IMG/VR virus record: IMGVR_UViG_2698536454_000007
Length of the DNA: 38,464 nucleotides
Reading direction: 5' to 3' (one strand)
Source of the DNA: a virus
Lineage: Duplodnaviria > Heunggongvirae > Uroviricota > Caudoviricetes
The first letter of the stretch is position 1, and the number at the start of each line of letters is the position of its first letter. The notes beneath the pieces were generated by a model. It was not told the DNA's origin and made no database searches. It saw only the letters and a list, made by a program, of their open reading frames with translations. Made by a program: the position numbers and the translations under genes. Shown piece after piece: positions 1,131 through 37,100 of the stretch.

Positions 1131-1183
1131 CGGCGGCAGAGCAGTCACGGAGTAAAACTGATACCGCCAAACGTCACCAGAAA
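1131..1183 (-). ncRNA. dicF: DicF small regulatory RNA (about 53 nt, processed from the dicB operon transcript)
   Basis: Reverse complement of 1131-1183 reads TTTCTGGTGACGTTTGGCGGTATCAGTTTTACTCCGTGACTGCTCTGCCGCCG followed by TTTTT, matching the DicF sequence as I recall it at 52 of 53 positions. It lies between ydfC-like and dicB as in Qin. Ends are approximate. Confidence 0.7.
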
Positions 1184-5207: not shown

Positions 5208-6239
5208 ATGTCTATTAATCCTAAACTTAAGCGTATCGCGCGACGCTATCCAGCGTTATTCCAATATGAGTCCCCCTATATGGCAAGAAAATTAATAATA
5301 TTCGGCAACGGTCTCGGTATGGCTTTAGATCCTGCTCACTTCTCCTTAGACAGAGCGTTGGAAGAAATTTGGCATCGCCCCAATTTTTTAAAAGATATCC
5401 ACAAGCAACTTATCGAGCGTTGTCTTCAGCGGCAAGGTCCACCAGAAGGAGAACATGAGTTGGATACCCTTCACCAGGCTGTCACATATTGTAAAGCTCT
5501 TGCTCAAATTGGAGAGGGGAACGTGCATTGGCTTACTGAAGATGGACTAAACTTCCCCAAAATTACCGCCACTTATATTCACAAAGTTGCAACCAGGTTG
5601 CATAATTACGATAAAGGTTTGCCACAAAGATTCGAAAATGCGCTTGTGGAGTTTGTAAAGAACACACACTCACATATCGCGACATTAAACTATGACAAAT
5701 TATTATACAATTCATTCATAGATAATGATATATTCAACGGGTATGATGGGGTTTTAGTTGATGGGATGCTAAGCCACGGATTTTCCTCTGCAGCGCTCGA
5801 ACGGAAATACAATCGTAGGTTTGGTTATTATTTGCACTTGCATGGTTCACCACTATTTATTAATCAGCATGAAAATGTTTTAAAACTTTCACGCTCACAA
5901 CTTACTCTTGACATAGATGAACCTAGTGAGCATATAGTGTTAACTCATATAAAAAGAAAACCGTCAGTTATAGCAGCATCTAATGTTCTTTCTACGTACT
6001 GGGATTATTTGCAGTTTGCATTATTTGAATCAGAAGAAATAATATTGTTTGGTTACTCTGGTCTCGATATTCACCTTAACCTGCTTATTCGACCTTACCT
6101 AACCTCTAAGCCTTTAAGAGTAATTGAGTGGAGCGGTGCTGGTGAACAAAACGCTCGTGAGATATATTGGAAAAACCAGTTGAGACGGGAAGTTACTGTA
6201 ATTAGGTTGGATAACATCACTGATTTTATTGATTGGTAG
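5208..6239 (+). CDS. Standalone SIR2-like (sirtuin-fold, predicted NAD-binding) protein, 343 aa; candidate anti-phage effector
   Basis: Motifs in sirtuin order: Gly-rich IIFGNGLGMA (res ~31-40), TLNYDKLL (compare sirtuin TQNIDxL), HLHGS (catalytic-His HG motif), ILFGYSGLD (GYS/GTS motif). The gene and its flanks are visibly AT-rich relative to neighbours. Weak Shine-Dalgarno (ACGGA). Confidence 0.65.
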   Translation: MSINPKLKRIARRYPALFQYESPYMARKLIIFGNGLGMALDPAHFSLDRALEEIWHRPNFLKDIHKQLIERCLQRQGPPEGEHELDTLHQAVTYCKALAQIGEGNVHWLTEDGLNFPKITATYIHKVATRLHNYDKGLPQRFENALVEFVKNTHSHIATLNYDKLLYNSFIDNDIFNGYDGVLVDGMLSHGFSSAALERKYNRRFGYYLHLHGSPLFINQHENVLKLSRSQLTLDIDEPSEHIVLTHIKRKPSVIAASNVLSTYWDYLQFALFESEEIILFGYSGLDIHLNLLIRPYLTSKPLRVIEWSGAGEQNAREIYWKNQLRREVTVIRLDNITDFIDW

Positions 6240-6553
6240 CGCAATGCGAAGTTAAAGAGGCAGCCTCATATTTATCAGAGCTGGTGTACGTCCAATACAG
6301 GAGGTTATCGTGCTGGTTCTCAAATGCGCGCTGGCTATTGCGGCTGTAGTGGCAATTTATTGTCTTGCTATTGTTCTTATGGATCGCCTTTCTGATTGAT
6401 TTTATATTGGCGAGGTGACGGGAGTTAAGTAGAATTGCTGCGGGTGCTTGAGGCTGTCTGCCTCGGGCATGCCACCGTAAGGCAGACAGAGAAAAGCCCC
6501 AGTTAACATTACGCGTCCTGCAAGACGCTTAACATTAATCTGAGGCCCAATCT

Positions 6554-6766
6554 ATGCTTCACAAACGTAGGTTAGCCTCTTACGCGCCGAAAGGCAAGGA
6601 GAAGCAGGCTATGAAGCAGCAAAAGGCGATGTTAATCGCCCTGATCGTCATCTGTTTAACCGTCATAGTGACGGCACTGGTAACGAGGAAAGACCTCTGC
6701 GAGGTACGAATCCGAACCGGCCAGACGGAGGTCGCTGTCTTCACAGCTTACGAACCTGAGGAGTAA
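6554..6766 (+). CDS. mok: Mok-like reading frame, an in-frame N-terminal extension of hok (70 aa)
   Basis: ATG at 6554 with GAGG upstream; same frame and stop as hok, as in chromosomal mok/hok loci. Confidence 0.5.
   Translation: MLHKRRLASYAPKGKEKQAMKQQKAMLIALIVICLTVIVTALVTRKDLCEVRIRTGQTEVAVFTAYEPEE
6611..6766 (+). CDS. hok: Hok/Gef-family type I toxin (51 aa), HokD/RelF-like
   Basis: Product MKQQKAMLIALIVICLTVIVTALVTRKDLCEVRIRTGQTEVAVFTAYEPEE: a single transmembrane helix plus the conserved Hok C-terminal region; AGGAG upstream; fold-back stem (CTGTCTGCC...GGCAGACAG) in the 5' leader at 6457-6490. Confidence 0.85.
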   Translation: MKQQKAMLIALIVICLTVIVTALVTRKDLCEVRIRTGQTEVAVFTAYEPEE

Positions 6767-6834
6767 GAGACCAGGCGGGGGAGAAATCCCTCGCCACCGC
6801 TGATGTGTCAGGCATCCTCAACGCACCCGCACTT

Positions 6835-6866
6835 AACCCGCTTCGGCGGGTTTTTGTTTTTATTTT
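6835..6866 (+). terminator. Rho-independent terminator downstream of hok
   Basis: CCCGC-TTCG-GCGGG hairpin followed by TTTTTGTTTTTATTTT. Confidence 0.7.
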
Positions 6867-6982
6867 CAACGCATTTGAAGTTCTGGACGGTGTCGGAATA
6901 GAATCAAAAATACTTAAGTAGCGCGCAGGGATAAGAGGGATGGTCCCTTAAAGGGGAGAGCTAATTATCCGGAAGGATTCTG

Positions 6983-11236: not shown

Positions 11237-11312
11237 GGCCCTTTAGCTCAGTGGTGAGAGCGAGCGACTCATAATCGCCAGGTCGCTGGTTCAAATCCAG
11301 CAAGGGCCACCA
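11237..11312 (+). tRNA. ileZ: tRNA with CAU anticodon (Met or lysidine-modified Ile2; ileZ-like)
   Basis: Cloverleaf: acceptor GGCCCTT/AAGGGCC, D-arm AGCTCAGTGGTGAGAGC, anticodon loop CTCATAA, T-arm GGTTCAAATCC, 3' CCA. Confidence 0.85.
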
Positions 11313-11319
11313 TCACATA

Positions 11320-11396
11320 CCGCTATTAGCTCATCAGGAAAGAGCGCCAGCCTTCGAAGCTGGCTGCGCGGGGTTCAAGTCCCCGATGGCGGTCCA
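11320..11396 (+). tRNA. argN: tRNA-Arg (anticodon UCG)
   Basis: Acceptor CCGCTAT/ATGGCGG, anticodon stem-loop GCCAG-CCTTCGAA-CTGGC, T-arm GGTTCAAGTCC, CCA end. Confidence 0.85.
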
Positions 11397-11409
11397 TTAT
11401 CTGCATCAT

Positions 11410-11486
11410 GCGTTGTTAGCTCAGCCGGACAGAGCAATTGCCTTCTAAGCAATCGGTCACTGGTTCGAATCCAGTACAACGCGCCA
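11410..11486 (+). tRNA. argO: tRNA-Arg (anticodon UCU, reads AGA)
   Basis: Acceptor GCGTTGT/ACAACGC, anticodon loop CCTTCTAAG, T-arm GGTTCGAATCC, CCA end. Confidence 0.85.
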
Positions 11487-11529: not shown

Positions 11530-11974
11530 GTCTCACAATTCAGACGGTTGACAGTTGTCTGTTTTGCGGGGAGTTTGTTAAAAGAAACTGGCATGGTGAA
11601 TCCCCCTGTGCGGAGGGGCAATCAGCGAGTAGGTATATGGGATAATCGCGGATTCAGGTGCTGGTACTGAATTCACCGGGAGGCACCCGGCACCATGCAA
11701 TGGCACATAGCGCCACTCTCCAGCCCCTCTCCGGAGGGGCTTTCTTATGGACAAAAAAAGCCCGCGCTGGGAGACGCGGGCGGCAAGGAATAAACAACAA
11801 AACGTGAAGTAATATTTCAGCTGGCGAATAATATCCGACAGTAATCACTCTGCGCAATAGCGCGGCCTTTTTCGTATTGCGGGCTGTTGTCTCTCTTCTG
11901 CCATTGTCCTGTAACTTCCGGACTTCAGCCCGCTCCTCATTTTACTCACAATATTATCCCGGCCGGGAGGATTC

Positions 11975-17659: not shown

Positions 17660-17830
17660 CGACAGGTTACGGGGCGGCGACCTCGCGGGTTTTCGCTATT
17701 TATGAAAATTTTCCGGGATCCATGTCCGGTTTCTCTTCAAGTTAACTATATGAAAAATATAAAAACAGGTCTTCTGTGAACCGGACATGAACAAAAAACA
17801 GACATGTAAACCGGACATGACCGGTTTTGT
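17660..17830. other. cos: cos site: cosN with the 12-nt cohesive end GGGCGGCGACCT (17672-17683) and a cosB-like array of terminase-binding repeats
   Basis: ...GACAGGTTACG|GGGCGGCGACCT|CGCGGGTTTTCGCTATTTATGAAAATTTTCCGG matches recalled lambda cos termini. Downstream lie CATGTCCGGT (inverted, 17721), an A/T-rich segment, then AACCGGACATGA twice (17779 and 17809). Confidence 0.8.
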
Positions 17831-17866
17831 TGTGATTGTGAGGTGAGAGTTTTTGCGAGGTGAGGA

Positions 17867-18376
17867 GTGGCTACGCAGACTGAAGTTGCCAGGCATTTAA
17901 GTCTGACCGATCGCCAGCTTCGCAGATTGCAGAAATTGCCGGGTGCCCCGATATCGAATAAGCGAGGGCAACTGGATCTGGATGCCTGGCGCGATTTTTA
18001 CATATCGTATCTGAGGAGAAGTAAAAACGATGTGCCTGATGGCGATAGCGAAGACGACTATGAGGAGAAATTGCTTATTGCCAGATGGGAACTGACAGCA
18101 GAACAGGCTGTTACACAGCAGTTAAAAAATGAGGTGTCAAAAGGAAAACTTATTGACACCGGGTTCTGTATTTTTGCCCTCAGTAAGCTGGCAATGGCGT
18201 TATCCAGTACGCTTGATTCCATCCCTTTATCCATGCAGCGACAGTTTCCTGATTTAACACCGCGCCATCTTGACCATCTGAAAACCCTTATTGCTAAGGG
18301 GGCAAATCAGTGTGCGCGGGCAGGGGATAAATTACCGGATTTACTCGATGAATATATCAGAGCAACAACTGAATAA
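17867..18376 (+). CDS. nu1: Terminase small subunit (Nu1-like)
   Basis: GTG start with GAGG 6 nt upstream; the C-terminal half (...FCIFALSKLAMALSSTLDSIPLSMQRQFPDL...LLDEYI) resembles lambda Nu1, while the N-terminal HTH region differs. Confidence 0.8.
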   Translation: MATQTEVARHLSLTDRQLRRLQKLPGAPISNKRGQLDLDAWRDFYISYLRRSKNDVPDGDSEDDYEEKLLIARWELTAEQAVTQQLKNEVSKGKLIDTGFCIFALSKLAMALSSTLDSIPLSMQRQFPDLTPRHLDHLKTLIAKGANQCARAGDKLPDLLDEYIRATTE

Positions 18377-20276
18377 TATGATGGCTGCCGTTTCGGTTGC
18401 GCTGCAGCCTCTGGTCAGGGTTGTACCAATGACGGCAGTTGAATGGGCTGATCAAAATTATTATCTGCCTAAAGAATCTTCATATGGTGAGGGAGAATGG
18501 AAAACGCTGCCATTCCAGATCGCCATTATGAACTGTATGGGTAACGACCAGGTTCGCACGGTTAACCTGATTAAATCTGCCCGTGTTGGCTATACAAAGA
18601 TGTTGCTGGGGGTGGTCGGGTATTTTATTGAGCATAAATCCCGAAACAGTCTGCTTTTTCAGCCCACGGATTCTGCCGCTGAAGATTTTATGAAGTCTCA
18701 CGTGGAGGCGACGATTCGGAACGTGCCATGCCTGAAAGACCTTTCCCCATGGCTGGGTCGTAAACATCGTGACAATACTCTCACGCTGAAACGCTTTTCA
18801 TCGGGCGTCGGTTTCTGGTGCCTGGGCGGTGCAGCCGCCAAAAACTACCGTGAAAAATCCGTGGACGTGGTCTGCTATGACGAGCTTTCCTCGTTCGAGC
18901 CGGATGTCGAAAAAGAGGGCTCGCCAACCCTGCTGGGGGATAAGCGTATTGAGGGCTCTGTATGGCCAAAATCCATTCGCGGCTCGACGCCTAAAATCAA
19001 AGGTACCTGCCAGATCGAAAAAGCGGCCAACGAGTCGGCGCATTTCATGCGTTTCTATGTGCCCTGCCCGCACTGTGGGGAGGCGCAGTATCTGAAATTT
19101 GGCGATGAATCCACGCCTTTTGGCCTTAAATGGGAGAAGGACAGCCCCGAAAGCGTTTTCTACCTCTGTGAACATCATGGCTGCGTGATCCATCAGTCTG
19201 AGCTTGACCAGAGTAACGGGCGCTGGATCTGTGAAAACACGGGTATGTGGACCCGTGACGGCCTGATGTTTTTCAGCGCCCGGGGGGATGAAATTCCGCC
19301 GCCGCGCTCCATCACGTTCCATATCTGGACGGCGTACAGTCCGTTCACCACCTGGATACAGATAGTCTATGACTGGCTGGATGCACTGAAAGATCCCAAC
19401 GGCCTGAAAACCTTTGTGAACACCACGCTGGGCGAGACCTGGGAAGAGGCCGTGGGCGAAAAACTCGATCACCAGGTACTGATGGATAAGGTGGTGCGTT
19501 ACACGGCGGCGGTGCCTGCCCGGGTGGTTTATCTGACGGCGGGCATTGACTCGCAGCGAAACCGTTTTGAGATGTATGTCTGGGGATGGGCACAGGGAGA
19601 GGAAGCCTTTCTGGTGGATAAAATCATCATTATGGGCCGTCCCGATGAGGAAGAGACGCTGTTACGTGTGGATGCGGCGATCAACAAAAAATACTGCCAT
19701 GCAGACGGAACCGAAATGACCATTTCCCGTGTCTGCTGGGACACCGGGGGGATCGATGGTGAAATTGTCTATCAGAGGTCAAAAAAACACGGTGTTTTCC
19801 GGGTGCTGCCGGTAAAAGGCGCATCTGTCTATGGCAAGCCGGTGATCACCATGCCGAAAACCCGCAATCAGCGGGGCGTGTATCTGTGTGAAGTGGGGAC
19901 GGACACCGCAAAAGAAATTCTCTATGCCCGTATGAAAGCCGATCCCACTCCTGCGGATGAAGCCACGTCGTATGCCATCCGTTTTCCTGATGATCCGGAG
20001 ATTTTTTCGCAGACAGAGGCGCAGCAACTGGTCGCGGAAGAGCTTGTGGAGAAGTGGGAAAAAGGAAAGATGCGTCTGCTGTGGGATAACAAAAAGCGGC
20101 GTAACGAAGCGCTGGACTGCCTGGTGTATGCCTACGCGGCATTACGTGTGTCCGTGCAACGCTGGCAGCTTGATCTGGCTGTACTGGCAAAATCCCGGGA
20201 AGAAGAGACGACCCGGCCAACCCTGAAAGAACTGGCAGCGAAGCTGTCCGGAGGAGTGAATGGTTACAGTCGCTGA
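18348..20276 (+). CDS. A: Terminase large subunit (gpA-like)
   Basis: MNISEQQ... start overlapping the Nu1 3' end as in lambda; long collinear similarity to recalled lambda A (e.g. YYLPKESSYGEGEWKTLPFQ, WPKSIRGSTPK, TAYSPFTTW). Confidence 0.9.
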   Translation: MNISEQQLNNMMAAVSVALQPLVRVVPMTAVEWADQNYYLPKESSYGEGEWKTLPFQIAIMNCMGNDQVRTVNLIKSARVGYTKMLLGVVGYFIEHKSRNSLLFQPTDSAAEDFMKSHVEATIRNVPCLKDLSPWLGRKHRDNTLTLKRFSSGVGFWCLGGAAAKNYREKSVDVVCYDELSSFEPDVEKEGSPTLLGDKRIEGSVWPKSIRGSTPKIKGTCQIEKAANESAHFMRFYVPCPHCGEAQYLKFGDESTPFGLKWEKDSPESVFYLCEHHGCVIHQSELDQSNGRWICENTGMWTRDGLMFFSARGDEIPPPRSITFHIWTAYSPFTTWIQIVYDWLDALKDPNGLKTFVNTTLGETWEEAVGEKLDHQVLMDKVVRYTAAVPARVVYLTAGIDSQRNRFEMYVWGWAQGEEAFLVDKIIIMGRPDEEETLLRVDAAINKKYCHADGTEMTISRVCWDTGGIDGEIVYQRSKKHGVFRVLPVKGASVYGKPVITMPKTRNQRGVYLCEVGTDTAKEILYARMKADPTPADEATSYAIRFPDDPEIFSQTEAQQLVAEELVEKWEKGKMRLLWDNKKRRNEALDCLVYAYAALRVSVQRWQLDLAVLAKSREEETTRPTLKELAAKLSGGVNGYSR

Positions 20277-32008: not shown

Positions 32009-32752
32009 ATGACACAGACAGAATCAGCGATTCTGGCGCATGCCCGGCGGTGTGTGCCTGCGGAGTCGTGCGGCTTCGTGGTGAGAACGCCGGAGGGGGA
32101 GCGGTATATCCCTTGTGTGAATATCTCTGCAGAGCCGGAGGCGTATTTTCGTATTGCACCGGAAGACTGGCTGCGGGCAGAGATGCAGGGGGAGATTGTG
32201 GCACTGGTCCACAGTCATCCCGGTGGTCTGCCCTGGCTGAGCGAGGCCGACCGGCGGCTGCAGATAAAAAGTGCACTGTCCTGGTGGCTGGTCTGCCGGG
32301 GGGAAATTCATAAATTCCGCTGTGTGCCACATCTGACAGGACGGCGCTTTGAGCACGGGGTGACGGACTGTTACACGCTGTTCCGGGATGCCTACCATCT
32401 GGCGGGAATTGATATGCCGGATTTTGAGCGTGAGGATGACTGGTGGCGCAACGGTCAGAACCTGTACCTGGACAATATGGAGGCGACTGGTTTTTACAGG
32501 ATTTCCCTGCCTTCCGCACAGCCTGGCGATATCCTGCTGTGCTGCTTTGGCGCATCGGTGGCCAATCATGCCGCCATATACTGCGGCAACGGTGAGCTGC
32601 TTCACCATCTGCCTGAACAACTGAGTAAACGGGAGAGGTATTCCGAAAAATGGCAACGACGAACGCATTCAGCCTGGCGTCACCGCCACTGGCACGTATC
32701 TGCCTTCACGGGGATTTACAACGATTTGGCCGCCGCCTCAGCCTGTATGTGA
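32009..32752 (+). CDS. K: Tail assembly protein K (JAB/MPN plus NlpC/P60-like)
   Basis: HSHP motif (VALVHSHPGG) of the JAB/MPN fold and C-terminal Cys/His region; the 3' end overlaps I by about 100 nt in another frame. Confidence 0.8.
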   Translation: MTQTESAILAHARRCVPAESCGFVVRTPEGERYIPCVNISAEPEAYFRIAPEDWLRAEMQGEIVALVHSHPGGLPWLSEADRRLQIKSALSWWLVCRGEIHKFRCVPHLTGRRFEHGVTDCYTLFRDAYHLAGIDMPDFEREDDWWRNGQNLYLDNMEATGFYRISLPSAQPGDILLCCFGASVANHAAIYCGNGELLHHLPEQLSKRERYSEKWQRRTHSAWRHRHWHVSAFTGIYNDLAAASACM

Positions 32753-33330
32753 ACACGGCAGCGGAAGCCATCCGTGCCCTGTCGATGCAGATGCCGGGAT
32801 TCCGCCGTCAGATGAACGAAGGCTGGTACCAGATACGTATTCGCGGTGAGGACACGGCACCGGAGGCGGTGTACGCCCGTCTTCACGAACAACTGGGTGA
32901 GGGAACGGTCATCCACATTGTGCCGCGACTGGCCGGGGCCGGAAAGGGTGGACTGCAGATTGTGCTGGGGGCGGCAGCCATCGTGGGCTCTTTCTTCACT
33001 GCCGGGGCATCAATGGCGTTATGGGGTTCAGCCCTGGCAGCCGGTGGTTTTTCTGCCACCACGATGCTGTTTTCACTGGGGGCCAGCATGATACTGGGTG
33101 GTGTGGCTCAGATGCTTGCCCCGAAGGCAAAAACACCGGATTACCGCGCAACGGATAACGGCAGACAGAACACGTATTTTTCCTCACTGGACAACATGAT
33201 TGCCCAGGGTAACCCGATGCCGGTGCCTTACGGGGAAATGCTGGTTGGCTCCCGCCGTATATCCCAGGACATCAGTACCCGTGATGAAGGCGGGGGCGGA
33301 AAGGTCGTGGTTATCGGGCGGCAGGCATAA
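32650..33330 (+). CDS. I: Tail assembly protein I
   Basis: 226 aa; ubiquitin-like N-terminal region and Gly/Ala-rich hydrophobic C-terminus; GGAGAGG Shine-Dalgarno. Confidence 0.85.
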   Translation: MATTNAFSLASPPLARICLHGDLQRFGRRLSLYVNTAAEAIRALSMQMPGFRRQMNEGWYQIRIRGEDTAPEAVYARLHEQLGEGTVIHIVPRLAGAGKGGLQIVLGAAAIVGSFFTAGASMALWGSALAAGGFSATTMLFSLGASMILGGVAQMLAPKAKTPDYRATDNGRQNTYFSSLDNMIAQGNPMPVPYGEMLVGSRRISQDISTRDEGGGGKVVVIGRQA

Positions 33331-33487
33331 AAGCGAAAAAATCCCGCAGTGCTCACGGACAGGAACTGCGGGAGCGTTACGAAGATTGAGTGTAAGGAAT
33401 TATTCTTATGTCACGACAAAAACATTAACTCAGAGAGGGAGGATGTGCCGTTCTTTTCAGGGAGAAAGGATTTATCGTCCTGAGGAA

Positions 33488-33515
33488 TAAAGGTAAGGGG
33501 CCCGCCCCTTACCTG
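33488..33515. terminator. Bidirectional terminator between convergent I and sodC
   Basis: GGTAAGGGGC-CCGCCCCTTACC hairpin flanked by A/T-rich sequence. Confidence 0.6.
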
Positions 33516-33520
33516 ACTGA

Positions 33521-34048
33521 TTATTGAATGATGCCGCAGGCCATTCTCGCACCACCACCGCCCAGGGGCTCCGGATGGTCATGATGGTTATCACCGCCAG
33601 CATGAAGCATGAGAGAACGCCCTTTAATCTCTTTTAATGAGTTCAGTCTCGGGGCCAGGACCGGGTAGTTCGCTTTTCCGTCATGCGTCACGAACAGCGC
33701 AGGGAGGTCGCCCAGGTGTCCATCCGGAGACCAGGGGCCAAGATGTTTGCCGGTGTTTTTCGGGTCAAAGTGACCGCCAGCCGATAATGCTGCGACCGGT
33801 TTTCCGTCTTTCAGTGCCGGGGCGCAATTTCCTTTTTCGTGCACATGAAAACCATGAATGCCTTCAGACAGAGAGTGAAGGGCTGGTGTGAACAGCAGAC
33901 CGTAGGGGGTCTCCTGAATGGTTATTTTTCCAATGCTGACTTCTTTTCCGTCAGCACTGACAAGGTTCATTGGGACTTCCTGTTCTGCTGCGTATCCGCA
34001 TGATGCTGCTGTCAGCATGGCAATGGCAGCAATGATTTTACATTTCAT
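33521..34048 (-). CDS. sodC: Periplasmic Cu,Zn superoxide dismutase (SodC), prophage moron
   Basis: Signal peptide [20 protein letters not shown]; copper/zinc ligand motifs [36 protein letters not shown]; GAGGG Shine-Dalgarno before ATG 34048. The ORF-track entry is a long artefactual N-terminal extension. Confidence 0.85.
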
Positions 34049-34181
34049 AAAACCCTCATTAATTCCGTTAACAGACTGAGCTTGCTGGTTACAGGGTAAC
34101 AAACAGCGTTCTGATGATATCGCGCAATAGCTGTGCAATATCCTATCACTGCGATTAATAATACCAATTGAGAGGAACATT

Positions 34182-37100
34182 ATGGGCAAAGGTGGCGGCA
34201 GGGCGCACACGCCTCGAGAGGCGAAGGATAATCTCAAATCCACGCAGATGATGAGTGTGATTGATGCGATTGGTGAGGGACCGATAGAAGGCCCGGTGAA
34301 GGGGCTGCAGAGTATCCTGGTGAACAAACCCCCGCTGACGGACACGGACGGCAATCCTGTGATACACGGTGTGACCGCGGTCTGGCGCGCCGGGGAGCAG
34401 GAGCAGACACCACCGGAAGGCTTTGAGTCCTCCGGAGCTGAAACCGGACTGGGCGTGGAAGTGACGAAGGCAAAGCCGGTAACGCGCACCATTACATCCG
34501 CGAACATTGACCGCCTGCGGGTCACCTTCGGGGTGCAGTCACTGTTGGAGACCACCTCAAAGGGCGACCGTAATCCCTCTTCTGTCCGACTGCTGATTCA
34601 GTTGCAGCGTAACGGTAACTGGGTGACGGAAAAGGATGTCACCATTAACGGCAAGACCACCTCACAGTACCTGGCGTCGGTGATTCTGGAGAATCTGCCT
34701 GAGCGGCCCTTTAACATCCGGATGGTCCGGGAGACAGCGGACAGCACCTCGGACCAGCTGCAGAATAAGACGCTCTGGTCGTCATACACCGAAATCATCG
34801 ATGTGAAACAGTGCTACCCGAACACGGCGATTGTGGGGCTGCAGGTGGATGCGGAGCAGTTTGGCGGTCAGCAGATGACGGTGAACTACCATATCCGAGG
34901 TCGCATCATCCAGGTGCCGTCAAACTATGACCCGGAAAAACGCACGTACAGCGGCATCTGGGACGGCAGCCTGAAACCGGCATACAGCAACAACCCGGCC
35001 TGGTGCCTGTGGGACATGCTGACTCACCCGCGCTACGGCATGGGAAAACGTCTGGTGGCGGCGGATGTTGACAAGTGGGCGCTGTATGCCATCGGGCAGT
35101 ACTGCGACCAGACGGTCCCGGATGGTTTCGGGGGCACAGAGCCGCGGATGACCTTTAATGCGTACCTGTCACAACAGCGTAAGGCATGGGATGTGCTCAG
35201 TGATTTCTGCTCGGCGATGCGCTGTATGCCGGTATGGAACGGCCAGACGCTGACGTTCGTTCAGGACCGCCCGTCGGATGTGGTGTGGCCGTACACCAAC
35301 TGCGATGTGGTGGTGGATGATAACGGCGTGGGGTTTCGCTACAGCTTCAGCGCCCTGAAGGACCGCCACACGGCGGTGGAGGTGAATTACACCGACCCGC
35401 AGAACGGCTGGCAGACCTCCACGGAACTGGTGGAAGACCCGGAAGCCATACTGCGCTACGGGCGCAACCTGCTGAAGATGGATGCGTTCGGTTGCACCAG
35501 TCGCGGTCAGGCCCACCGTGCCGGGCTGTGGGTGATAAAGACCGGACTGCTGGAAACGCAGACGGTGGATTTCACGCTCGGGTCACAGGGGCTGCGTCAC
35601 ACACCCGGTGACATTATTGAAATCTGTGATAACGACTATGCCGGGACCATGACCGGCGGACGTATCCTGTCCATCGATGCCGCCAGCCGCACCCTGACAC
35701 TGGACCGTGAGGTGACCCTGCCGGAGACAGGTGCCGCCACGGTGAACCTGATTAACGGCAGCGGTAAGCCGGTGAGCGTGGCCATCACTGCACACCCCGC
35801 GCCGGACCGGATACAGGTCAGCACCCTGCCTGATGGTGTGGAGACATACGGTGTATGGGGACTCTCCCTGCCGTCACTGCGTCGTCGCCTGTTCCGCTGT
35901 GTCTCCATCCGGGAAAACACGGACGGCACCTTTGCCATCACGGCGGTGCAGCACGTACCGGAAAAAGAAGCCATTGTGGATAACGGGGCCAGCTTTGAGC
36001 CACTGTCCGGTTCGCTGAACAGCGTCATCCCGCCGGCTGTGCAGCACCTGACGGTGGAGGTGAGCGCGGCTGACGGTCAGTATCTGGCACAGGCGAAATG
36101 GGACACGCCGCGGGTGGTGAAGGGTGTGCGCTTCAGTCTGCGCCTGACCAACGGAAGCGGAGAAGACAGCCGTCTGGTGACCACCGCCATCACTGCGGAT
36201 ACAGAGCATCGTTTCAGTGGTCTGCCGCTCGGGGAATACACCCTGACAGTCAGGGCAATTAACAGGTATGGCCAGCAGGGCGAACCGGCCACCACCACCT
36301 TCCGGATTAACGCGCCAGCAAAACCCGCCACCATTGAACTGACGCCGGGGTATTTTCAGATAACGGCGGTCCCGCGTCTTGCGGTGTATGACCCGACGGT
36401 ACAGTTTGAGTTCTGGTTTTCGGAGGCAAAAATCGCAGACACATCTCAGGTGGAAACCTCTGCCCGTTATCTGGGGACCGGCAGTCAGTGGAGTGTATCC
36501 GGCCCGCACATTAAGCCCGGGAAGGATTTCTGGTTTTACGTGCGCAGCGTCAACCTGGTGGGGAAATCTGCGTTTGTGGAAGTCAGCGGGCAGCCCAGCA
36601 ATGATGGTGAAGGGTATCTGGAATTTTTCCGGGAAAAAATAGGAAAACTGCATCTGGCTCAGGGGCTATGGGAGCTGATAGACAACAGCCAGCTTGCGGA
36701 TGAGATGGCGGAGATGAAGACCACCATCACCGAAACCCGCAATGAAATCACACAGACGGTCAGTAAAACGCTGGAAGACCAGAGCGCCACCATTCAGCAG
36801 ATACAGCGCGTGCAGAAGGACACAAATGATGACCTGGCTGCGCTGTACATGCTGAAGGTTCAAAAAACGAAAGACGGCATTCCCTATGTGGCCGGGATTG
36901 GTGCAGGGATTGAGGATACTGATGGCCAGCCACTGAGCAACATACTGCTGCTGGCTGACCGTATCGCGATGATAAATCCGGAGAGCGGCAACAGCACTCC
37001 GTTATTTGTGGCGCAGGGGAATCAGCTGTTCATGAACGACGTGTTCCTGAAGCGTCTGTTTGCGGCGAGTATCACGTCATCCGGCAACCCCCCGACGTTT

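What the first reader, a model, noticed from the sequence alone, without database searches (positions are those of the whole stretch)
6420..6866. Intact-looking hok/mok type I toxin locus (HokD/RelF-like) with leader fold-back and terminator
The Hok ORF is full length with the conserved transmembrane segment and C-terminal region, an in-frame Mok extension, a 5' inverted repeat (CTGTCTGCC...GGCAGACAG) and a 3' intrinsic terminator. Hok/sok loci have been linked to phage exclusion. Whether a functional Sok antisense RNA exists on the minus strand over the mok start cannot be resolved by eye.
Basis: partly seen in the sequence, partly recalled or inferred. Interest (0 to 1): 0.5.

Follow-up and report, generated by a model that had tools for sequence, protein, structure and literature searches.

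The report
Intact prophage hok/mok/sok toxin-antitoxin locus
This is an ordinary, complete copy of the well-known hok/sok "host-killing" toxin plus antisense-RNA antitoxin module. It is the hokD/hokW subtype that lambdoid prophages carry in most E. coli genomes, so it is real but not new.

Summary
Window 6407-6858 holds a complete hok/mok/sok type I toxin-antitoxin module.

- **Toxin:** Hok is 51 aa (6611-6766; Pfam HOK_GEF E=1e-23) and identical to E. coli K-12 HokD.
- **Mok:** it starts at ATG 6554, in frame with hok.
- **hok mRNA:** promoter 6407-6435, inferred start G6442, terminator 6835-6858.
the minus strand has TTGCCT-17-TAACCT (6597-6569). An inferred 71-nt RNA (6562 to 6492) ends in a long hairpin plus U-tract. 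Both hexamers match sokW of Stx2 prophage Sp5, where the locus is 92.8% identical. There, mutating the sokW promoter unmasked HokW toxicity and sokW RNA was detected.
- **RNA switch:** the 5' end (tac) pairs with a 3' element (fbi, 6816-6828). This helix and others covary across 35 loci from five genera. In silico 3' trimming moves tac onto ucb, as in plasmid R1.
- **Context:** K-12 hokD matches only from 6597 onward, with relBE upstream. The host prophage is Qin-like and IS-disrupted.
- **Prevalence:** about 3,900 of 5,426 complete E. coli genomes hold a near-full-length copy.

Verdict: already known, low interest. Side observations are an unannotated 29-aa ORF beside the locus and a variable cargo slot, here SIR2-like.

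The parts
6407..6435 (+). hok promoter: TTGGCG, 17-nt spacer, TAGAAT. Predicted transcription start is G6442.
   Evidence: Consensus scan gives 9 of 12 matches. G6442 lies 7 nt after the -10 box and coincides with position 1 of the Rfam model. The -10 box is conserved in the Sp5 hokW locus.
6442..6858 (+). Full-length hok (mok-hok) mRNA, about 417 nt.
   Evidence: Bounded by the promoter and terminator. MFE -173.7 kcal/mol, z=-6.0. The consensus fold of 35 homologs is 98.1% paired against 37-45% when partners are slid.
6442..6453 (+). tac (translational activator) element: the 5' end of the mRNA. It pairs with fbi in the full-length RNA and with ucb after 3' trimming.
   Evidence: Repeat pairs I7 and I4. 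Partner lists in the folds. A U-A to C-G compensatory change occurs in 11 of 35 loci at alignment columns 38/437.
6454..6489 (+). Apical hairpin of the tac stem.
   Evidence: Paired in both the full-length and trimmed folds. Compensatory changes occur, for example G-C in the window against A-U in Sp5.
6494..6500 (+). ucb (upstream complementary box, the anti-SD of mok): AAGCCCC.
   Evidence: 6496-6500 pairs with the mok SD region 6542-6546 in the full-length fold. 6494-6500 pairs with tac 6442-6449 in the trimmed fold. The ucb/SD helix covaries (A-U to G-C in 11 and 9 loci). The tac/ucb helix is invariant in all 35 loci.
6542..6545 (+). mok Shine-Dalgarno sequence, GAGG.
   Evidence: Lies 8 nt upstream of ATG 6554. 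GAGG upstream of the aligned mok start is present in all 35 loci.
6554..6766 (+). mok reading frame: 70 codons, in frame with hok and sharing its stop codon.
   Evidence: mokW in Sp5 is annotated the same way. A mok ORF that reads across the hok start is present in 32 of 35 loci, in frame in 25 and in the +1 frame in 7.
6569..6597 (-). sok promoter: -35 TTGCCT (6597-6592), 17-nt spacer, -10 TAACCT (6574-6569).
   Evidence: Read from the minus strand. Both hexamers are identical in Sp5 sokW, and the spacer differs at one base. Conserved as TTGCCT or TTGACC plus a TAAnCT-like box in most of the 35 loci. Function of the sokW promoter was shown by a promoter-less mutant (PMC8621323). The K-12 hokD match begins exactly at 6597, so K-12 lacks everything from the -10 box onward.
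6492..6562 (-). Sok antisense RNA, about 71 nt: 5' G6562 to about U6492. It is complementary to the mok SD and start codon.
   Evidence: Coordinates transferred from the sokW misc_RNA of AP000422 through the pairwise alignment. The predicted fold has a 9-nt single-stranded 5' tail, a long hairpin and a U-rich tail; MFE -30.7 kcal/mol, z=-4.7.
6598..6601 (+). hok Shine-Dalgarno sequence, GGAG within CAAGGAG. It overlaps the sok -35 box on the other strand.
   Evidence: CAAGGAG is nearly invariant in 35 loci.
6611..6766 (+). hok toxin gene: 51 aa, MKQQKAMLIALIVICLTVIVTALVTRKDLCEVRIRTGQTEVAVFTAYEPEE.
   Evidence: RefSeq names it HokD, WP_000813254.1, the same accession as K-12 HokD. It is 42% identical to R1-type Hok.
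6744..6758 (+). Small hairpin that presents the Tyr47 codon TAC followed by G (6749-6752) in its loop. This is a TadA-type A-to-I editing motif.
   Evidence: The stem covaries, with both sides changed in 14 and 11 loci. Editing of K-12 hokD at this Tyr to Cys position is reported in PMC5630033.
6774..6795 (+). GC-rich GAAA-tetraloop hairpin. It is the likely 3' end-protecting stem of the processed (truncated) hok mRNA.
   Evidence: Present in the folds. It is an 8-pair helix in the consensus fold and is conserved across homologs. The role is inferred by analogy with the last stem-loop of truncated R1 hok mRNA (PMC9841398).
6816..6828 (+). fbi (fold-back inhibition) element: CCUCAA(C)GCACCC.
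   Evidence: Forms 12 base pairs with one bulge against 6442-6453. Covaries with tac.
6835..6858 (+). Intrinsic terminator of the hok mRNA: AACCCGC-TTCG-GCGGGTT followed by a T run.
   Evidence: Terminator scan.

Best explanation
Window 6407-6858 is a complete hok/mok/sok type I toxin-antitoxin module of the hokD/hokW subtype. It very probably functions. It sits in the nin-like region of a Qin-like, now defective, lambdoid prophage of E. coli.

Mechanism, with the basis of each step:
1. A sigma-70 promoter makes a roughly 417-nt hok mRNA. The promoter and terminator are shown at sequence level.
2. The 5' end of that mRNA (tac) is clamped to a 3' element (fbi), and the mok ribosome-binding site is held by ucb. 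The full-length RNA is therefore neither translated nor bound by Sok. This structure is supported by folding and by covariation.
3. Slow 3' trimming removes fbi. tac then switches onto ucb, opening the mok start region. The switch is reproduced in silico. The processing itself is inferred from plasmid R1.
4. Ribosomes translating mok, here in frame with hok, run into the hok start and allow synthesis of the 51-aa membrane toxin. This step is inferred from R1.
5. A short-lived 71-nt antisense Sok RNA from TTGCCT-17-TAACCT on the minus strand pairs with the mok start region, and the duplex is cut by RNase III. The promoter and RNA are shown by identity of both promoter hexamers with sokW and by near-identity (92.8%) of the locus. 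sokW function was shown in Sp5, not here.

When Sok falls, Hok is made and depolarises the membrane. Sok could fall on loss of the element, on transcription shut-off or on prophage induction. The most likely role is selfish retention of the prophage region and/or acceleration of growth arrest and lysis on induction, as found for hokW-sokW.
For: - Protein family: Hok ORF matches PF01848 at E=1e-23 and PHROG 251 at E=3e-33.
- RNA family: Rfam RF01794 scores 116 bits against a 59-bit threshold, spanning exactly the predicted start to the hok AUG.
- Transcription signals: hok promoter and terminator found.
- tac/fbi: 12 base pairs. Transcript fold z=-6.0.
- Covariation: the consensus fold of 35 loci from Escherichia, Kluyvera, Photorhabdus, Pantoea and Citrobacter has 98.1% of cells paired against 37-45% when slid. 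16 pairs carry compensatory changes against 2-8 when slid, including tac/fbi and ucb/mok-SD.
- Switch: trimming the 3' end to 6812 or shorter moves tac from fbi to ucb. That tac/ucb helix is intact in all 35 loci.
- Mok: an ORF with a GAGG SD is conserved in either frame.
- Sok: promoter and 71-nt RNA map onto annotated sokW. The Sok fold has z=-4.7.
- Closest characterised relative: the locus is 92.8% identical to hokW-sokW over 6422-6838. HokW is toxic, sokW neutralises it from its own promoter, and both RNase III and Hfq contribute (PMC8621323).
- Archetype: an R1-type plasmid locus is co-linear. It has 168 nt from +1 to the hok AUG against 169 nt here, and its sok promoter TTGCGC-17-TATCCT sits at the same place.
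- Carriage: the same locus at about 95% identity sits at the same map position in the phage record HannyBb.
Against: - There are no expression, processing or toxicity data for this copy or strain.
- The sok -10 box matches the consensus at only 3 of 6 positions and failed the generic promoter scan.
- The mok-SD/dcb helix predicted for the trimmed RNA is only 70% paired across homologs, so that part of the switch is not supported by comparison.
- The tac/ucb helix never varies, so covariation cannot speak for it.
- Chromosomal hokA, hokB and hokC loci were reported not to mediate post-segregational killing (cited in bioRxiv 10.1101/2025.08.07.668861).
- The host prophage has IS elements in its terminase and tail genes, so a 'phage release' role cannot apply here.
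- The NCBIfam Hok subfamily model scores below its cut-off, 48.5 against 73 bits.
- Five C-terminal residues differ from HokW.
Confidence: 0.85

Rival explanations
1. The locus looks intact but is functionally silent. It would be a chromosomal hok relic whose toxin is never released, like the chromosomal hok loci of laboratory strains, and it persists only because it hitch-hikes in a prophage.
For: [quoted passage not shown] The prophage here is degraded by two IS insertions. No expression data exist for this copy.
Against: None of the known inactivation modes is present: no IS, no frameshift and no truncation. Every regulatory element is conserved and covaries. The Sp5 locus, 92.8% identical, is a working toxin-antitoxin pair. 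About 3,900 E. coli genomes keep near-full-length copies at 90% identity or more, which argues for purifying selection.
Confidence: 0.08
2. The module is functional, but its main role is abortive-infection or exclusion defence against superinfecting phages. Phage shut-off of host transcription would deplete Sok and Hok would kill the cell. Prophage retention or lysis timing would be secondary. This rival concerns the biological role only and is compatible with the mechanism above.
For: Plasmid hok/sok has been implicated in phage defence (cited in PMC8621323). [quoted passage not shown]
Against: A systematic survey found no enrichment of hok next to defence systems. Hok has no PADLOC model hit. 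The only experiments on this subtype point to induction-linked lysis, with sokW loss being RecA-dependent. No exclusion data exist for the hokD/hokW type.
Confidence: 0.2
3. It is a toxin-only remnant like K-12 hokD (relF), with no antisense regulator. The upstream similarity to Sok would be coincidental.
For: The generic promoter and terminator scans found no minus-strand promoter or terminator between 6490 and 6600. The Rfam 'sok' match is on the plus strand.
Against: K-12 similarity starts only at 6597, whereas the window has the whole leader. The minus-strand hexamers, spacing and start are those of sokW. The Sok hairpin plus U-tail folds with z=-4.7. The scans missed these sites because of their fixed thresholds: 4 of 6 matches per hexamer, and perfect short stems.
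Confidence: 0.02

Closest known systems
hokW-mokW-sokW of Sakai prophage 5 / phage VT2-Sakai / 933W (Takada et al. 2021, PMC8621323; GenBank AP000422)
   Same: 92.8% nucleotide identity over window 6422-6838. Same 51-aa toxin length, same in-frame 70-codon mok, identical sok -35 and -10 hexamers, same 71-nt Sok span and same tac/fbi sequences. Both are carried by lambdoid prophages.
   Different: Five C-terminal residues differ...VFTAYEPEE here against ...VFVDYESEK in HokW. Several bases differ in the Sok/mok-start region. The sequence after fbi diverges, so Sp5 lacks this terminator. The map position differs: here it lies between the replication genes and the Q-like antiterminator, whereas in Sp5 it lies near the end of the prophage record. 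The host prophage here is IS-disrupted.
hokD (relF) of the Qin cryptic prophage, E. coli K-12
   Same: Identical Hok protein (WP_000813254.1). 98.6% DNA identity from 6597 to 6880. Same downstream neighbours: rem, a hypothetical gene, and DUF968/ydfU.
   Different: K-12 has relB-relE immediately upstream, and similarity ends at the sok -35 box. It therefore lacks the hok promoter, tac, ucb, the mok start, the sok -10 box and the Sok body. The window copy has all of them.
hok/mok/sok (parB) of plasmid R1, the archetype
   Same: Same gene order and element order. About the same distance from the mRNA 5' end to the hok AUG: 169 nt here and 168 nt in an R1-type IncFII locus. The sok promoter is at the same place, and there is an fbi plus terminator at the 3' end. 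Both have the tac/fbi, ucb/mok-SD and tac/ucb logic.
   Different: Only 42% protein identity. In R1, mok is out of frame with hok: the mok start codon includes nt 117-118 and the hok start codon includes nt 176 (PMC9841398), so the AUGs lie about 58 nt apart. Here they are 57 nt apart and in frame. The hairpin shared by the Sok terminator and its target is 16 nt longer than the Rfam consensus. The replicon is a plasmid, where post-segregational killing is proven, against a prophage here.
hokC/mokC/sokC (gef) type chromosomal loci
   Same: The leader and coding region are alignable. Both have an in-frame mok and the same tac, ucb and fbi sequences.
   Different: About 80-82% protein identity. 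The hokC type has a Sok hairpin about 18-20 nt shorter and a different sok -35/-10 pair, TTGACC and so on. It is not prophage-borne in K-12; this last point rests on my own knowledge.

Membership tests
[quoted passage not shown] | Small Hok/Gef toxin ORF of about 50 aa with an N-terminal transmembrane helix and a conserved C-terminal region | tested here: met
   PF01848 E=1.2e-23, model positions 1-42 of 42. PHROG 251 E=2.8e-33. RefSeq names it HokD. The NCBIfam Hok subfamily model is below its cut-off, 48.5 against 73 bits.
[quoted passage not shown] | Overlapping upstream mok reading frame with its own SD that reads across the hok start (translational coupling) | tested here: met
   GAGG at 6542-6545 and ATG at 6554, giving 70 codons through the hok start. 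Conserved in 32 of 35 related loci regardless of frame. The coupling itself was not tested.
[quoted passage not shown] | cis-encoded antisense Sok RNA with its own promoter, complementary to the mok translation-initiation region | tested here: met
   TTGCCT-17-TAACCT at 6597-6569 on the minus strand. A 71-nt region from 6562 to 6492 covers the mok SD and AUG, with a hairpin plus U-tail. It is co-linear with annotated and experimentally supported sokW and conserved in 35 loci. This is sequence-level evidence only; the transcript was not observed in this strain.
[quoted passage not shown] | Long-range 5'-3' pairing (tac/fbi) that closes the full-length mRNA | tested here: met
   6442-6453 pairs with 6816-6828 by 12 base pairs. 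A U-A to C-G compensatory change occurs in 11 of 35 loci, and the helix is 99.5% paired.
[quoted passage not shown] | ucb sequesters the mok SD in the full-length RNA, and tac pairs with ucb after 3' truncation (conformational switch) | tested here: met
   The ucb/SD helix is predicted and covaries. The tac/ucb helix appears when the 3' end is trimmed to 6812 or shorter and is intact but invariant in 35 loci. This is an in silico test only.
[quoted passage not shown] | mok SD/dcb target hairpin in the truncated RNA | tested here: inconclusive
   Predicted for the window as 6541-6546 paired with 6556-6561. Only 70% of cells are paired across homologs, with no compensatory change.
[quoted passage not shown] | Match to the curated covariance model of the locus leader (Rfam RF01794) | tested here: met
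   116.2 bits against a gathering score of 59, E=5.6e-26, full model 1-157. The match is on the hok mRNA strand.
[quoted passage not shown] | Hok kills or arrests cells, Sok neutralises it, RNase III cleaves the duplex, and the mRNA undergoes 3' processing | not testable with these tools
   Shown for Sp5 hokW-sokW, whose locus is 92.8% identical (PMC8621323), and for R1 (PMC9841398). Not shown for this copy.
hokD/hokW prophage subtype | Near-identity to HokD/HokW and carriage in a lambdoid prophage next to rem and DUF968 | tested here: met
   Protein identical to K-12 HokD. Same rem-DUF968-RusA-antiterminator neighbourhood in six genomes and one phage.

The most novel reading that the evidence does not exclude
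The conserved 155-bp block just upstream of the hok promoter (6257-6412) travels with hokD loci in about 1,300 E. coli genomes and holds an unannotated 29-aa hydrophobic ORF with a strong SD. It could encode a second, undescribed small membrane peptide or RNA that works with hok/sok. It might be a further toxin, or a regulator that links the module to the variable defence-like cargo slot upstream. Separately, the position of the module inside the early-right operon could let read-through transcription on induction silence Sok and time Hok release.
Probability: 0.1. Interest if true: 0.45.

Novelty: already known. Interest (0 to 1): 0.1.

Why it matters
It matters little as a discovery. hok/sok is a textbook antisense-regulated toxin system. 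This subtype is named in RefSeq, present in most E. coli genomes and already characterised in Sp5.

The practical value is in annotation. RefSeq records only the hokD CDS here, yet the locus also carries mok, the Sok RNA, both promoters and the tac/ucb/fbi RNA switch. It also documents what the truncated K-12 hokD (relF) looked like before relBE took over its upstream region. That makes it a convenient natural full-length reference for anyone studying hokD-type regulation, TadA editing of Tyr47, or the variable cargo slot next to it.

Tried and rejected
1. The generic promoter and terminator scan found no minus-strand promoter or terminator for Sok. I rejected this as negative evidence because the scan needs 4 of 6 matches per hexamer and short perfect stems. 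Direct reading plus comparison with sokW located both.
2. I had taken the Rfam 'sok' hit as direct evidence for the antisense RNA and rejected that. The hit is on the plus strand and spans the hok leader from +1 to the hok AUG.
3. The decayed-locus hypothesis is not supported: there are no frameshifts, IS elements or truncations.
4. The mok-SD/dcb helix taken from the window's own MFE fold is not supported by comparison, at 70% paired.
5. The small ORF at 6310-6399 has no hit in Pfam, PADLOC, NCBIfam or PHROGs. Its codon-position substitution pattern of 3/3/5 in six copies is uninformative.
6. Only one of the 53 genome-contig loci fetched with the Hok protein (L055) also carried the whole upstream block, so that block had to be studied from E. 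coli genome hits instead.
Full report
**Observation.** The region reads as the first-stage reader described.
- A 51-aa ORF runs from 6611 to 6766: MKQQKAMLIALIVICLTVIVTALVTRKDLCEVRIRTGQTEVAVFTAYEPEE.
- An in-frame ATG lies 57 nt upstream at 6554, giving a 70-codon ORF.
- The 51-aa protein matches Pfam HOK_GEF over the whole model (E=1.2e-23) and PHROG 251 'MokW-like host killing' (E=2.8e-33).
- The inverted repeat CTGTCTGCC/GGCAGACAG is at 6454-6462 and 6481-6489.
- A stem-loop plus T-run terminator is at 6835-6852 and beyond.
- Rfam RF01794 matches 6442-6616 at 116 bits against a gathering score of 59 (E=5.6e-26).
- The 419-nt transcript folds six standard deviations better than shuffles.

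**Where it sits.** The window is 100% identical to the chromosome of E. coli FDAARGOS_1059, where RefSeq annotates only 'hokD' here. The surroundings are a Qin-like lambdoid prophage:
- exonuclease, dicB, DicF RNA, ydfC/ydfB;
- a cI-like repressor, cro, a YdaT-family gene and replication-region genes;
- a SIR2-family gene, then hokD, rem, DUF968, RusA and DUF1133;
- a methyltransferase, three tRNAs, holin and lysozyme, then head and tail genes.

The large terminase gene and a tail gene are each split by IS66-family elements, so the prophage is defective. The same locus at about 95% identity, in the same map position between an O-like/Ren-like pair and a Q-like antiterminator, is present in the phage record HannyBb.

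**The plus-strand transcript.** A sigma-70-type promoter, TTGGCG-17-TAGAAT, lies at 6407-6435. It places the start at G6442, which is position 1 of the Rfam model.
- The first 12 nt, GGGUGCUUGAGG (6442-6453), are complementary to CCUCAA(C)GCACCC at 6816-6828, just before the terminator.
- The minimum-energy fold of the full-length RNA forms exactly this 12-bp clamp.
- In the same fold, 6496-6500 (ucb, GCCCC) pairs with the mok Shine-Dalgarno region 6542-6546.
- These are the tac/fbi and ucb/mok-SD interactions that define the inactive full-length hok mRNA of plasmid R1 (PMC9841398).

**Comparative support.** I fetched 53 loci encoding HokD/HokC-like proteins from one-genome-per-species contigs. 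I aligned 35 that have a leader, from Escherichia, Shigella, Kluyvera, Pseudocitrobacter, Citrobacter, Pantoea and Photorhabdus.
- RNAalifold recovers the tac/fbi helix, the apical hairpin, the ucb/SD helix, several coding-region helices and the 3' GC hairpin.
- On that structure 98.1% of cells are standard pairs, against 37-45% when partners are slid by 1-3 columns.
- 16 pairs show changes on both sides, against 2-8 when slid. None of 500 shuffles reaches the observed covariation score.
- In tac/fbi, U4-A becomes C4-G in 11 loci.
- In ucb/SD, two pairs switch from A-U to G-C, in 11 and 9 loci.

One caveat applies. The structure was derived from the same alignment, which inflates the percentage paired but not the compensatory counts.

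**The switch.** Folding the window RNA with its 3' end trimmed to 6812 or 6808 moves tac (6442-6449) onto ucb (6494-6500), with U6445 bulged. This releases the mok SD from ucb. The tac stem is the one drawn in the Rfam consensus.
- Across the 35 loci the tac/ucb helix is 99.6% paired but invariant, so it is conserved rather than proven by covariation.
- The only variable tac position, column 38, is the bulge in this helix and the covarying pair in tac/fbi. That is what a two-state element predicts.
- The mok-SD/dcb hairpin predicted for the window (6541-6546 with 6556-6561) is only 70% paired in homologs, so I leave it as inconclusive.
- The GAAA-tetraloop hairpin at 6774-6795 is conserved. 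By analogy with R1, it is the likely 3'-protecting stem of the processed RNA.

**mok.** GAGG upstream of the aligned mok start is present in all 35 loci, and the start is ATG in 34. The ORF reads across the hok start in 32. It is in frame with hok in 25 and in the +1 frame in 7. This fits the R1 finding that translation of mok up to the hok start matters, not the Mok product. In R1 the mok start codon includes nt 117-118 and the hok start codon includes nt 176, so the AUGs lie about 58 nt apart and out of frame. Here the distance is 57 nt and in frame, as annotated for mokW.

The generic scan found nothing on the minus strand. Read directly, the minus strand shows TTGCCT (6597-6592), a 17-nt spacer and TAACCT (6574-6569), with a G seven bases downstream at 6562.
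- GenBank AP000422 (phage VT2-Sakai, which is Sp5) annotates mokW, hokW and a 71-nt 'SokW antisense RNA'.
- The window is 92.8% identical to that locus over 6422-6838.
- The pairwise alignment places sokW at window 6562 to 6492.
- Both promoter hexamers are identical in Sp5, and the spacer differs at one base.
- The predicted RNA has a 9-nt free 5' tail, a long hairpin and a U-rich tail. MFE is -30.7 kcal/mol and z=-4.7.
- It covers the mok SD and AUG.

Takada et al. reported the following for Sp5 (PMC8621323):
- HokW arrests growth.
- sokW expressed from its own promoter prevents that arrest.
- Mutating the sokW promoter restores toxicity.
- sokW supplied in trans partly rescues growth.
- RNase III and Hfq both contribute.
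- sokW RNA is seen on northern blots and disappears after mitomycin C in a RecA-dependent way.

An R1-type IncFII locus has TTGCGC-17-TATCCT at the equivalent place. The promoter is conserved in both subfamilies of the 35 loci. The -35 box overlaps the hok SD on the other strand.

**Relation to K-12 hokD (relF).** The K-12 protein is identical (same WP accession), and the downstream genes are the same. DNA similarity starts only at window 6597, the first base of the sok -35 box, and relB-relE lie immediately upstream. K-12 therefore lacks the hok promoter, tac, ucb, the mok start, the sok -10 box and the Sok body. The window holds the undisrupted form.

That form is common. 3,925 of 5,426 complete E. 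coli genomes have a place covering at least 80% of the query. The median is two places per genome and the maximum is ten. 79 phage records and many P1-like or other plasmids also match. A 2025-26 survey reports Hok in almost 80% of Enterobacteriaceae genomes, enrichment in prophages, and no enrichment next to defence systems.

**Mechanism and role.** I commit to the R1-type mechanism at 0.85 confidence.
- Shown here at sequence or structure level: both promoters, the terminator, the three genes, tac/fbi, ucb/SD and the in silico switch.
- Inferred from R1 and Sp5: 3' processing, mok-hok coupling, RNase III cleavage, Sok instability and membrane killing.

The role is less certain. The best-supported analogy is induction-linked growth arrest and lysis, as with hokW-sokW, and/or selfish retention of the prophage segment. 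Because this prophage cannot make particles, retention is the more plausible current effect. Phage exclusion is possible but untested for this subtype.

**Novelty.** None of substance. This is a known system, a known subtype and a known location. Interest is 0.1.

**Side observations.**
- A 155-bp block (6257-6412) directly upstream travels with the locus in 1,321 genomes whatever lies further upstream. It contains an unannotated 29-aa hydrophobic ORF with an AGGAGG SD. The ORF stays open in six diverged copies, but its substitution pattern is uninformative.
- The slot upstream of that block holds different cargo in each genome examined:
  - a SIR2-like gene here;
  - relBE in K-12;
  - a RelA/SpoT-domain gene;
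  - a DUF4209 gene;
  - in the remaining two genomes, hypothetical genes, in one case with an integrase.
- The Tyr47 codon TAC followed by G sits in the loop of a covarying hairpin. This is the TadA A-to-I editing site reported for K-12 hokD.

Noticed in passing
window 6257-6412 (ORF 6310-6399, + strand): An unannotated 29-aa hydrophobic ORF, VLVLKCALAIAAVVAIYCLAIVLMDRLSD, with a GTG start and AGGAGG 6 nt upstream. It lies in a 155-bp block that accompanies the hokD locus in 1,321 of 5,426 E. coli genomes, whatever gene lies further upstream. The ORF is open with no indels in six diverged copies, but substitutions by codon position are 3/3/5, which is not decisive. It has no hit in Pfam, PADLOC, NCBIfam or PHROGs and is too short for the large homology search. 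A sigma-70-like site on the minus strand (6428 to 6399) would transcribe antisense into it.
   Followed up: partly
window 5208-6239 and the equivalent slot in L056-L060: The position between the DUF977/Ren-like gene and the hok block is a variable cargo slot. It holds a SIR2-like 343-aa protein here (Pfam SIR2_2 E=1e-5; PADLOC Aga_SIR2 and PDC-S21 E about 4e-6 to 8e-6). Other genomes hold relBE (K-12), a RelA/SpoT-domain protein, a DUF4209 protein, three hypothetical genes, or an integrase plus a hypothetical gene. It looks like a moron or defence-gene hotspot.
   Followed up: partly
window 6744-6758 (TACG at 6749-6752): The hok Tyr47 codon TAC followed by G lies in the 9-nt loop of a 3-bp hairpin. 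Two of its three pairs show compensatory changes, in 14 and 11 of 35 loci. This matches the TadA A-to-I editing motif and the Tyr-to-Cys editing reported for K-12 hokD (PMC5630033). All 35 aligned loci keep TACG at this codon. A second UACGAA occurs at 6704-6709 (Val32-Arg33 codons), where editing would be silent.
   Followed up: partly
window about 17738-20072 and about 32609-35197: The prophage is defective. An IS66-family element (ISEc22) splits the large terminase gene, and IS679 splits a tail C40-peptidase gene. These are RefSeq pseudogene flags. Window coordinates were computed from record coordinates.
   Followed up: no
window 6442-6616 (+): The Rfam family RF01794 is named 'sok antitoxin', but it matches the hok mRNA strand, from the predicted transcription start to the hok AUG. 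Its consensus structure is the tac stem of the processed hok leader. Hits to this family therefore mark the hok leader and do not by themselves show the 71-nt antisense RNA or its strand.
   Followed up: yes
window 1131-1182 (-), 11237-11483 (+), 11562-11752 (+): DicF sRNA (72.5 bits). A cluster of three tRNA genes, annotated in RefSeq as tRNA-Ile, tRNA-Arg and tRNA-Arg. The STnc100 sRNA (139 bits) lies just downstream of the tRNAs, ahead of the lysis genes. These are typical features of Qin-like or Stx-phage-like late regions.
   Followed up: no
window 6500-6541 compared with alignment A2 columns 101-131: The hairpin that serves as both the Sok terminator and its target comes in two length classes among relatives. 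The hokD/hokW and Kluyvera types carry a roughly 18-20-nt longer stem than the hokC and Photorhabdus types. Genomes hold up to 10 hokD-type copies, and copies differ at a few Sok/mok-start positions. Cross-talk between copies is therefore an open question.
   Followed up: no
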